A stretch of 63,142 nucleotides of DNA, counting the filler, from Hausera hauseri (Eukaryota), in assembly GCA_046269625.1 (NCBI GenBank). It is 10 parts of 10 records of this genome, joined end to end, with 100 filler letters (N's around TTAATTAATTAA, not from the genome) between each part and the next. Parts side by side here need not be neighbours in the genome. Positions count along the whole stretch, not along the records: positions 37,171 to 47,535 come from JBJURY010198858.1; 9 more parts are not named here. One strand, 5' to 3'. Under the pieces are notes generated by a model that did no database searches, was not told the DNA's origin, and worked only from the letters and a program-made list of their open reading frames with translations. Positions within the stretch are counted from its first letter, which is position 1, and each line of letters opens with the position of its first letter. Shown piece after piece: positions 40,776-42,895 of the stretch. The position numbers and the translations under genes are program-made.

Positions 40776-42895
40776 CTTTGGGTACTGACATGAACGAAAT
40801 TGAGATTGCTGGGTGTAATAATTAATGTAGCATCGTTTATTGGGTTCAACCAATGGCATAGCCGTTGCGTTCGGTTATCGTAGGTGTAGGAAAAATGGTA
40901 GTAGACTGATGGTTGGCGTCCATAAGGGCATGAAATACCATTGTGGAATGTTATTTGAAGTGCATCACTTGATTGTAAAAGTTGGAATCGGAGTTTGTTG
41001 AAACATGTCGCAAATAGGTGATGAGCACAATGGAATTGGACTACTGTTATTCGTTCGGTAAGGCAAATTGTACATTCATAGGTTGGGAGTTGATCATAGA
41101 AGAGGATTTGCAATGTTGCCCAAAGATCAGGTGGGGCTTAGTCGAAAATAAGATCGATTCGACATTTACTGAGTACGGGAAACTAATCTTGTTGTAATGA
41201 TAGTGGTAATGGTGGACTATGTGATATGGTTGGTGTAGAAGTTATTGAATATGCAGGTACTGGTAATTCAGATAATGGTCTAATGACTCTTTCAGGATGA
41301 TAACGTGGATGGGGAATTAAAGACGGTTGTTGTAGAAGGGACGTAATATTTGTGTGCTAAAGGTACTTGGTATATAGTTGGTGAGGGTCTGGTTATTGCG
41401 GATGGGCTAAAGCGATTGATGGGAAATTCGATTCTAACGGAAAATTGCTGTTCTATTCGGAAATATCTGGTTGGTAGTAATTGGGGAGTGGGGGTATTAG
41501 TAATAGTAAGTAAGGCTCGTCTAGGGTGATGGAAGTAAGAATATATGTATTCGGGGCAAAAGTAACATATACTGCAAATTAGATATCGGCAGTGGATTCT
41601 AACTGGTAGCAATGAGAACAGTATTCCGTATTACAGCAACTAAATTGGTAAGCTGTTTTATTGGGTTTATTACATAAACCACAAGTATGTAACTGAAAAT
41701 AAGGAATAGAAAAGGGTGTTGACACATTTCCTGTATAATAATATGTATCATGGTCAGTTGGTTCGATGACTTTGTGATTTTTATCATCGAGTGAGGATTG
41801 GTCGGCGTCAGATGGAAATGCGTCATGTTGAATACAGTATTTAATTTCAAATTTGCAAATTGGACAATATGGCATAGGGTTTGCCTGGGATCGGGCTCTA
41901 TCTATACAGTACGAACATAGCATATGCAAACAAGGTGTTAATCTGTACACAATATTGAGGATTGCTCTGCACTCCATACGTTCTGGGAAATTTGAAAATA
42001 ATTTGTATTAATTAAGATTTAATTCAATTATATTAAGATTTGTGCATTTATTAGCGTCTTTAATATACAATGAATTCGACAGGTAGTTATACAATTGTCT
42101 AAGTAAATGGGCTTGTACCAATGGTGAAGTGTATGTAGGGATGATGGTGGTATGTAATAATTTCTCGCTCAAACGAATTATAAGTACTGGGTTTGTAGAA
42201 AAATTTGTAGCGATGGGGTGATGGCTTAGATCGAAAAACCGTGGGTATATGTGGTAGGTAATCTTAATGAACATAAAAGTAAGTCAAGTTGTACTGTTAT
42301 AATAAATTTGTAGAAAATCTTCTTTGTCAATTTTATTCAGGGTTAGATCATCTGTTATACCTGTGAAGTGTGTTCTCCAATCTATAAATTTATGTCTAGG
42401 ATACATTTGCTGCTGTAATAGTATTTTGCCCTTATAGTCTAAAATGGCAGTATCAATGATGGTCTGGTTAATGGTCGTAGGGTTAGGTTGAATGGTGATA
42501 TAATTATAAGATAAGAAAGTGAATAGGGATTCTAAATCGGATAGGGATGAACTTTCTGATATTGAAGTATATTCCTTTATTGACGATAGCTGTTTGGGTA
42601 TTTGTATGGATTGGTTTTTGTTCTCATTGTGGGTATATAGAAGTCGTGGTTGAATTACTTCCACAGCAGATATCCTGTTATTCGAAGAAGAAATTGAGAA
42701 GGACAATAATTCCATAGGAGGAGTAGTAATAATCACACTAGAGTTTTCAAGTAGTTCATGATTAATGTCAAATATGGGATCAAGGTAATTGATATTGACT
42801 GTTAATTTGCCACTGGCGAGATGTATTGCTATAATATCGAACTTCTGTGGTTAGTCGGTAAAAATCAATGGGGATAACGAATTAGTAATGTCTGT
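40760..42895 (-). pseudogene. Inactive DEDDh exonuclease-like domain fused to three RING fingers
   Basis: ORFs at 42736, 42274 and 41977 share one frame. Exonuclease-like: IIDTAILDYKGKILLQQQMYPRHKFIDWRTHFTGI..FFDLSHH..LSEKLL..QAHLLRQLY. RING1 PCLHMLCSYC..CPIC; RING2 CGLC..SCC..YCSHC..CSIC (frameshift); RING3 CTIC..HCAHHL..TC..CPY. Confidence 0.75.

What the first reader, a model, noticed from the sequence alone, without database searches (positions are those of the whole stretch)
42008..42480. The same dead exonuclease domain occupies the same position in two unrelated-looking elements
Seen: IIDTAILDYKGKIL..YPRHKFIDWRTHFTGI..DLSHH..QAHLLRQLYN aligns with LVEITLIDIEGNII..TPREKINNYNIHITGL..DLLHH..KALTILKIYN (33250-33710). 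Both lack the catalytic acids and both are in the last ORF before a PPT preceded by GAGGAC. Inference: the inactive domain is an old, conserved module of this clade, which links this contig to the gag-env family.
Basis: partly seen in the sequence, partly recalled or inferred. Interest (0 to 1): 0.7.

Follow-up and report, generated by a model that had tools for sequence, protein, structure and literature searches.

The report
Retroelement accessory exonuclease, repeatedly inactivated
Both stretches are broken copies of one accessory gene of giant envelope-bearing retrotransposons, an RNA-trimming enzyme fused to an AlkB-like domain, whose active site is intact in most relatives found and seems to have been lost more than once.

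Summary
Both stretches are ISG20/REXO4-type DEDDh exonuclease domains with 0 of 5 catalytic residues, each upstream of a GAGGAC motif and polypurine tract, on two unlinked contigs. They are not separate host captures. Both also carry an N-terminal double-stranded beta-helix domain (best structural match AlkB-type) that all 26 host-type exonucleases tested lack, and they group with 30 outside proteins (100/100). Where context was seen (7 loci, one metagenome), this ORF lies 3' of a giant env-PR-RT-RH-IN polyprotein or beside RING/TRAF cargo, the Burro / GAG-ENV-POL layout. That supports the link to the window's gag-env family; for contig B the link is indirect. 'An old conserved dead module' is not supported: 20 of 30 relatives keep D-E-D/E-H-D, A and B are not nearest relatives (16% identity), and one origin for 9 dead sequences was rejected (p-AU 0.02, one model). 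'Same position' is loose, since B has 1.3 kb of RING-coding DNA before its PPT. Both copies are pseudogenes. Exonuclease and AlkB cargo are each known in LTR elements; I did not find this fusion in the papers searched. Function is inferred only.

The parts
42083..42530 (-). Domain B: ISG20/REXO4-type DEDDh exonuclease fold, 0 of 5 catalytic residues, ExoII region shortened, in-frame stop at 42284-42286
42647..43058 (-). 5' part of ORF B: ATG at 43058, frameshift near 42985, N-terminal beta-helix (AlkB-like) domain 42982-42647 with an in-frame stop at 42851-42853
   Evidence: N-domain profile 30.1 bits, iE 6.9e-9
41582..42007 (-). RING finger and a second Cys-rich zinc finger, same frame as domain B after the stop at 42008-42010
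   Evidence: Pfam zf-C3HC4 E 3.8e-4, just under its cut-off
40718..41137 (-). Second RING-like ORF running into the PPT
   Evidence: Pfam PF24921 E 6e-4, under its cut-off
40728..40775 (-). GAGGAC motif, PPT (40750-40739) and putative 3' LTR start TGTTGGGGTT at 40737; same start as L005; no matching LTR end found in the window
43358..44065 (-). Ankyrin-repeat ORF upstream of ORF B, broken by a stop
   Evidence: Pfam Ank_2 E 8.6e-7
44190..46612 (-). Further upstream ORFs of contig B with hydrophobic stretches; no family assigned
32840..34108 (+). ORF A: cut by the contig start, one in-frame stop at 32924-32926; N-terminal domain to 33136, SFLR linker at 33215, dead DEDDh domain about 33250-33706, low-confidence tail
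34121..34157 (+). Hairpin with AGGA loop, PPT 34144-34154, TGT
   Evidence: (z -3.3)
34620..34885 (+). Second AGGAC hairpin and PPT (34657-34665), LTR-like stretch of about 200 nt ending in CA, primer-binding-site-like sequence from 34867
34912..37070 (+). gag with CCHC knuckle, then a ubiquitin-like domain, broken by stops; 72% nt identity over 2235 nt to the element in 12312-16271
12312..15800 (-). Second copy of the family: tail homologous to ORF A, LTR-like stretch, PBS, gag, ubiquitin-like region, start of env
20951..23597 (-). env (Monjiviricetes fusion type) followed by protease and downstream region, the gag-env-pol order
   Evidence: Pfam PF24664 E 5e-5; tblastn to the L001 polyprotein E 1e-48 and 4e-4

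Best explanation
A and B are decayed copies of one accessory gene family of giant Ty3/gypsy gag-env-pol elements (Burro-like endogenous retroviruses of invertebrates). The gene encodes a two-domain protein: an AlkB-like double-stranded beta-helix without the metal triad, joined to an ISG20/REXO4-type 3'-5' exonuclease. SHOWN: homology, domain order, position 3' of pol or near the PPT, catalytic state. INFERRED: it is made from a spliced subgenomic message; the ancestral, usual form is an active RNA exonuclease that, guided by the N-terminal domain as an RNA-binding module, trims element RNA or RNA:DNA by-products and so blunts host RNA-based defence; in at least two lineages, those of A and of B, catalysis was lost while the fold was kept, leaving a non-catalytic RNA-end binder or decoy. 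These two copies were pseudogenised afterwards.
For: N-domain profile from 19 outside proteins scores B 31.9 and A 16.9 bits, held-out members 57.8 and 36.6, and all 26 host-type proteins under 1 bit. Family plus A and B against host REXO4: 100/100, again 100/100 without the catalytic columns. L001 and L003 carry the ORF 3' of env-PR-RT-RH-IN polyproteins over 3000 aa; L004 and L006 carry it after RING and TRAF-MATH ORFs; L007 shows ORF, LTR, PBS, gag as in contig A. Fold of P0011: residues 1-138 match ALKBH6 (Z 11.9, rmsd 3.9, 136 aligned), Ofd2 (11.3) and ALKBH7 (10.8); the exonuclease matches ISG20 (Z 19.9). 20 of 30 relatives keep all five catalytic residues. Neutral decay consistent with the stop counts changes all five with probability about 1e-3 or less. 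14 of 19 accessory ORFs start after a splice-acceptor-like motif, against 56 of 1083 ATGs. One origin of 9 dead sequences rejected, p-AU 0.02.
Against: No function was tested. No genomic context was obtained for any outside dead member, and all 7 loci come from one metagenome. Contig B has no recognised gag, env, pol or second LTR. A's dead subgroup had 88/99 and 94 support but fell under 80 when the catalytic columns and P0003 were removed. B is a very long branch, and on the exonuclease alone no placement was rejected. Generic cupins score within 1 Z of the AlkB hits. Outgroups were REXO4-like only. The family was collected with A as query, so A's profile scores are partly circular.
Confidence: 0.58

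Rival explanations
1. One reading: catalysis was lost once, long ago, and A and B descend from that one dead module.
For: Both have Asn at the ExoI Glu. A+B as sisters (p-AU 0.42) and B inside A's dead subgroup (p-AU 0.36) were not rejected on the exonuclease alone. A subgroup of 8 dead sequences appears in two trees.
Against: The other four replacements differ. A-B identity is 16%, lower than A or B to many intact members. The dead-subgroup profile prefers A (124 bits against 77-98 for 20 intact profiles) but not B (55 against 42-62). All dead together rejected, p-AU 0.02 under LG+G4; that set includes P0028, so it does not isolate B.
Confidence: 0.17
2. The dead forms have no function: they are vestiges drifting under relaxed selection in lineages that still transpose.
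For: Dead members have the longest branches. B has also lost the GIRD arginine and part of ExoII. Both window copies are broken.
Against: Eight deeply diverged dead sequences keep G, P-R, V-G and G-x-R-D at 7 or 8 of 8. The 7 outside ones are open ORFs of 173-609 aa. A folds with pLDDT mostly over 90 across the domain, though from an alignment rich in intact members.
Confidence: 0.17
3. Contig B is not a gag-env-pol element but a non-autonomous or different mobile unit, or a host locus, that picked up the ORF.
For: No gag, env or pol match on contig B. No matching LTR end. The likeness of its upstream ORFs to post-integrase repeats of L001/L003 was not significant.
Against: Hairpin motif, PPT and an LTR start like that of L005. 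RING and ankyrin cargo as in L004/L006 and as described for Burro (PMC6431247). The contig may simply end before pol.
Confidence: 0.1
4. Two separate recent captures of host REXO4/ISG20 that then decayed in place.
For: Pairwise similarity is low and confined to the common exonuclease core.
Against: Shared non-host N-terminal domain; family-type residues such as PR and DL where hosts have DT; too few stops for five catalytic losses; tree 100/100.
Confidence: 0.03

Closest known systems
Burro / GYPSM1 giant gypsy elements of planarians (PMC6431247, section 7 read whole)
   Same: gag, ubiquitin-like domain, mononegavirus-type env, PR, RT in one run; MATH/TRAF, RING-type and ankyrin cargo; accessory ORFs.
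   Different: That section names no exonuclease or AlkB-like ORF in Burro. No Burro sequence was compared, and BCL2 and BIR were not detected here.
GAG-ENV-POL errantiviruses with HSV/gB-type env of Nematoda, Bryozoa, Platyhelminthes (PMC13524379; abstract, part 1 of section 5, passages, supplement searches)
   Same: Gene order and env type. By eye, the env of L001 and L003 shares the VYQESD..EC motif with the Smed_errantivirus_1 row.
   Different: No 'exonuclease', 'AlkB' or 'DEDD' in its text or 7 supplementary files. The paper says this arrangement is not monophyletic.
DEDDy ORF3 of bdelloid rotifer Juno/Vesta LTR elements and Terminons (PMC5408684; part 2 of 5 and passages)
   Same: 3'-5' exonuclease as an extra ORF downstream of pol, shared among retroelements rather than freshly taken from the host; spliced expression.
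   Different: DEDDy/RNase D type with intact residues and in elements without env; here DEDDh/ISG20 type, fused to a beta-helix domain, with dead forms.
AlkB ORF of orchid giant gypsy elements (PMC9289625; abstract and outline only)
   Same: AlkB-fold cargo in a large gypsy element.
   Different: Active m6A demethylase, recent, in plants; here the metal triad is not conserved and the domain is fused to an exonuclease.
Host ISG20 / ISG20L2 / REXO4, and inactive DEDD derivatives Maelstrom and EXD1
   Same: Fold (Z 17.6-19.9 to ISG20). PMC5408684 notes Maelstrom and EXD1 as inactive DEDD proteins that keep RNA binding.
   Different: Host REXO4-type proteins lack the N-terminal domain and form a separate branch.

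Membership tests
ISG20/REXO4-type DEDDh exonuclease | DnaQ-like fold closest to ISG20 | tested here: met
   A: Z 17.6, E 1.2e-4. B: by profile only; B was not folded itself.
ISG20/REXO4-type DEDDh exonuclease | Catalytic D, E, D, H, D | tested here: not met
   0 of 5 in A and in B; 5 of 5 in 20 of 30 relatives.
Host REXO4 orthologues | Branches among host REXO4 sequences | tested here: not met
   Separated 100/100 from 17 REXO4-like rows; ISG20, AEN, REXO1 and PAN2 sequences were not in the tree.
AlkB / 2OG-Fe(II) dioxygenases | Double-stranded beta-helix with AlkB-type extension | tested here: met
   Model of relative P0011: ALKBH6 Z 11.9, 136 aligned; generic cupins up to Z 11.0 with about 95 aligned. 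The window copies were linked by profile, not folded over this domain in full.
AlkB / 2OG-Fe(II) dioxygenases | HxD/E...H metal triad | tested here: not met
   Only one conserved His (19 of 21) and one distant acid (21 of 21) in the domain; judged from alignment columns, not from coordinates.
Ty3/gypsy GAG-ENV-POL errantivirus (Burro-like) | gag, gB/mononegavirus-type env, then PR-RT-RH-IN | tested here: inconclusive
   env-PR-RT-RH-IN met in L001 and L003. In the window the parts lie on separate contigs and no RT is linked to them. Contig B has none of them.
Ty3/gypsy GAG-ENV-POL errantivirus (Burro-like) | PPT, LTR and PBS | tested here: inconclusive
   Contig A has PPT, LTR-like stretch and PBS-like site; contig B has PPT and an LTR start only; no paired LTRs.
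Burro sensu stricto | RT clade with Burro/GYPSM1, about 5000-aa polyprotein, BCL2 and BIR domains | not testable with these tools
   No Burro sequence could be fetched; Grohme 2018 not held.
Rotifer DEDDy ORF3 | DEDDy (RNase D-like) type | tested here: not met
   Intact relatives have the DEDDh His and match RNase_T and ISG20.

The most novel reading that the evidence does not exclude
Envelope-bearing giant retroelements of invertebrates carry a conserved, undescribed counter-defence protein, an RNA-reading AlkB-like domain fused to an ISG20-like exonuclease (the fold vertebrates use against viruses). It has repeatedly turned into a pseudo-nuclease that protects element RNA ends or competes with small-RNA trimming, a retroelement-encoded counterpart of Maelstrom/EXD1.
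Probability: 0.25. Interest if true: 0.8.

Novelty: new variant of a known kind. Interest (0 to 1): 0.5.

Why it matters
Accessory genes of invertebrate endogenous retroviruses are barely annotated. A two-domain family with both active and naturally dead members gives a marker for assigning pol-less fragments to this group. It also makes a standing question testable: why LTR elements carry 3'-5' exonucleases, and whether catalysis or RNA binding is what is selected.

Tried and rejected
Pfam found no exonuclease family in either window ORF at E 0.01 or 0.1. The word-index search with A found nothing among 206 candidates. No relatives in viral contigs or prokaryotic genomes. The ESM Atlas gave RNase_T clusters for A (0.92) and no usable hit for the N-domain. 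A by-eye likeness between Cys/Tyr repeats upstream of B and the post-integrase repeats of L001/L003 failed in both directions (best relevant scores 3.4 and 2.4 bits); rejected as evidence. The GAGGAC hairpin is significant by folding energy only at 34121 (z -3.3); the other 6 of 7 sites were not, and the gypsy element at 8128 has GAGGAC without it, so the motif is not treated as clade-diagnostic. I recall it from other gypsy groups; one search gave no paper on it by title or abstract. The sequencing-run search listed one holder, no RNA holder listed. In that run none of A's five catalytic codons is among the 40 difference rows shown of 776; too incomplete to count as evidence. Earlier findings of the scan: nothing. 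The host organism was not identified and no genome is held.

Full report
Setting. The window is a string of unlinked contigs joined by N44-TTAATTAATTAA-N44 linkers; no genome is held and the host was not identified. Domain A lies on contig 32838-37070 (+) and domain B on contig 37171-47535 (-).

The observation. Both quoted peptides exist. Their similarity is weak but real: local score 76, reached by 0 of 2000 shuffles, and B is A's best non-self hit among 1572 window segments. A matches ISG20 by sequence (E 1.2e-4) and by predicted fold (Z 17.6, rmsd 2.2, 156 aligned). At the five catalytic columns A has A,N,M,Q,K and B has S,N,T,T,Q. GAGGAC followed by a G-rich tract occurs at 34128 (+) and 40768 (-). 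The position is only roughly alike: about 435 nt separate A's domain from its first PPT, about 1320 nt in B, filled by RING, zinc-finger and RING sequence. Both copies are broken. A has one stop and is cut by the contig start. B has a frameshift near 42985 and stops at 42851, 42284 and 42008, with more downstream.

What it is. phmmer of A against 1.84 billion representatives gave 31 hits. I class 27 as one family and 4 as host-type; a profile search added 3 more. Full-length members are 320-680 aa: an N-terminal domain, an SFxR linker, a DEDDh exonuclease with GIRDL, and a variable tail. A profile of the N-domain built from 19 outside proteins finds exactly two places in the six-frame window, upstream of B (30.1 bits, iE 6.9e-9) and upstream of A (15.6 bits, iE 2.3e-4); the next best is 6.9 bits. 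Two held-out members score 57.8 and 36.6, and all 26 host-type proteins under 1. Nine of the 30 members do not score on it; most are fragments. B's match is independent, because the family was collected with A. In a 51-row tree (30 family, A, B, 17 REXO4-like rows of which 16 are among the 72 hits, 2 multi-domain) the family with A and B separates from hosts at 100/100. A model of member P0011 (pLDDT 83.5) gives ISG20 for the exonuclease (Z 19.9) and a double-stranded beta-helix for residues 1-138, best ALKBH6 (Z 11.9), Ofd2 (11.3) and ALKBH7 (10.8), with shorter cupins close behind. No HxD...H triad is conserved.

Where it sits. A metagenome scan with 6 intact members returned 7 loci, all from one assembly. 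In L001 and L003 the ORF follows a polyprotein of over 3000 aa with Monjiviricetes-type env, protease, RT, RNase H and integrase. In L004 and L006 it follows RING and TRAF-MATH ORFs. In L007 it is followed by an LTR-like stretch, PBS and gag. Five of 7 (L002, L004-L007) have a hairpin motif and TG start just after the ORF. Contig A shows the same ORF, PPT, LTR, PBS, gag run, its gag-ubiquitin region is 72% identical to the gag-ubiquitin-env element at 12312-16271, and that contig also bears a remnant of ORF A's tail. The window's env, protease and gag match L001, L003 and L007. ORF-LTR-gag junctions may be tandem copies or LTRs collapsed by short-read assembly (inference); either way they tie A to the gag-env family. 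One public run laid 12302 contigs on contig A at 80% likeness or more, so the family is multicopy, and the contigs covering A's stop do not carry it; this run may be the same organism. Contig B has ankyrin and RING cargo, a PPT and an LTR start like L005's, but no gag, env or pol.

Is 'dead' the old state? Twenty of 30 relatives keep all five residues, 8 keep at most one, and 2 are truncated or frameshifted. Decay after insertion does not explain A or B: at divergences that fit their stop counts all five would change with probability about 1e-3 or less (a rough simulation). So catalysis was lost while the ORFs were still open. A groups with 7 dead members at 88/99 and 94, and their profile prefers A (124 bits against 77-98) but not B (55 against 42-62). 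Against this, that subgroup lost support when the catalytic columns and P0003 were dropped, and on the exonuclease alone A+B (p-AU 0.42), B within the dead subgroup (0.36) and B outside the family (0.36) were all not rejected. All 9 dead rows as one clade was rejected (p-AU 0.02; 0% of 200 bootstrap trees; LG+G4). More than one loss is therefore favoured, not proven, and B's place is open.

How it likely works. Shown: domain order, context and catalytic state. Suggestive: 14 of 19 accessory ORFs in the loci begin after a splice-acceptor-like motif against 5% of other ATGs (L004-L007 are related, the pattern was mine, and B's start fits only a looser pattern added afterwards), which points to spliced messages. 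Inferred from the families: the intact protein trims RNA or RNA:DNA ends to aid replication or evade RNA-based defence, and dead forms bind without cutting, as noted for Maelstrom and EXD1 in PMC5408684. Nothing here tests function.

Comparison with what is known. Exonuclease ORFs downstream of pol are known in rotifer LTR elements, but of DEDDy type and intact (PMC5408684; part 2 of 5 and passages; also mentioned in passages of PMC6338049). An active AlkB ORF is known in orchid gypsy elements (PMC9289625; abstract and outline). The gag-ubiquitin-env-pol layout with MATH, RING-type and ankyrin cargo is that of Burro (PMC6431247, section 7 whole) and of GAG-ENV-POL errantiviruses (PMC13524379). 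Ten searches (listings only, apart from the five papers named) showed no description of the fused protein or of dead forms. Grohme 2018 and Sacco 2022 were not held, bioRxiv supplements are closed, and Repbase annotations could not be seen, so a prior note of this ORF is possible.

Verdict. Real feature; the lineage link is largely right, the 'ancient dead module' reading is too strong. New variant of a known kind, interest 0.5.

Noticed in passing
window 34121-34665 +: Two hairpin-plus-PPT units about 500 nt apart precede the LTR-like stretch; one contig of run X1 skips most of the interval.
   Followed up: partly
L004:6881, L005:3014, L006:4811, L007:3002: After the GAGGAC hairpin the tract before the LTR start is a run of C (AAACCCCCCGAGATA-TGT) where L002 and the window have G, an odd PPT for apparently intact elements.
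   Followed up: no
L001, L003-L007, starts of accessory ORFs: Repeated TAATTTTAG-type acceptor motif directly before successive ATGs, suggesting a nested set of spliced or trans-spliced messages.
   Followed up: partly
L001:2-9037 and L003:1-9621: The polyproteins continue past integrase into hydrophobic stretch, Cys/Tyr-containing repeats, hydrophobic stretch; L003 has a similar module between two protease-like regions.
   Followed up: partly
protein P0108: Unnamed intact exonuclease from 360-731 kb metagenomic contigs is sister to the family at weak support (95/74); a giant-virus source is a guess.
   Followed up: partly
window 737-2286 and 10935-12211 +: Two copies, about 90% identical, of a DNA primase large-subunit fragment flank a decayed gypsy element and a broken HECT ligase gene.
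   Followed up: no
window 37470-38500 -: Fragment that I recall as resembling Polinton-type DNA polymerase B sequence, downstream of element B; no Pfam hit.
   Followed up: no
window 47636-54361: About 6.7 kb of TTCG/TTTC microsatellite with N gaps.
   Followed up: no
window 28174-30418 + and 18429-18722 +: Highly divergent PP2A-A-like HEAT-repeat gene and a sestrin fragment, probably host genes.
   Followed up: no
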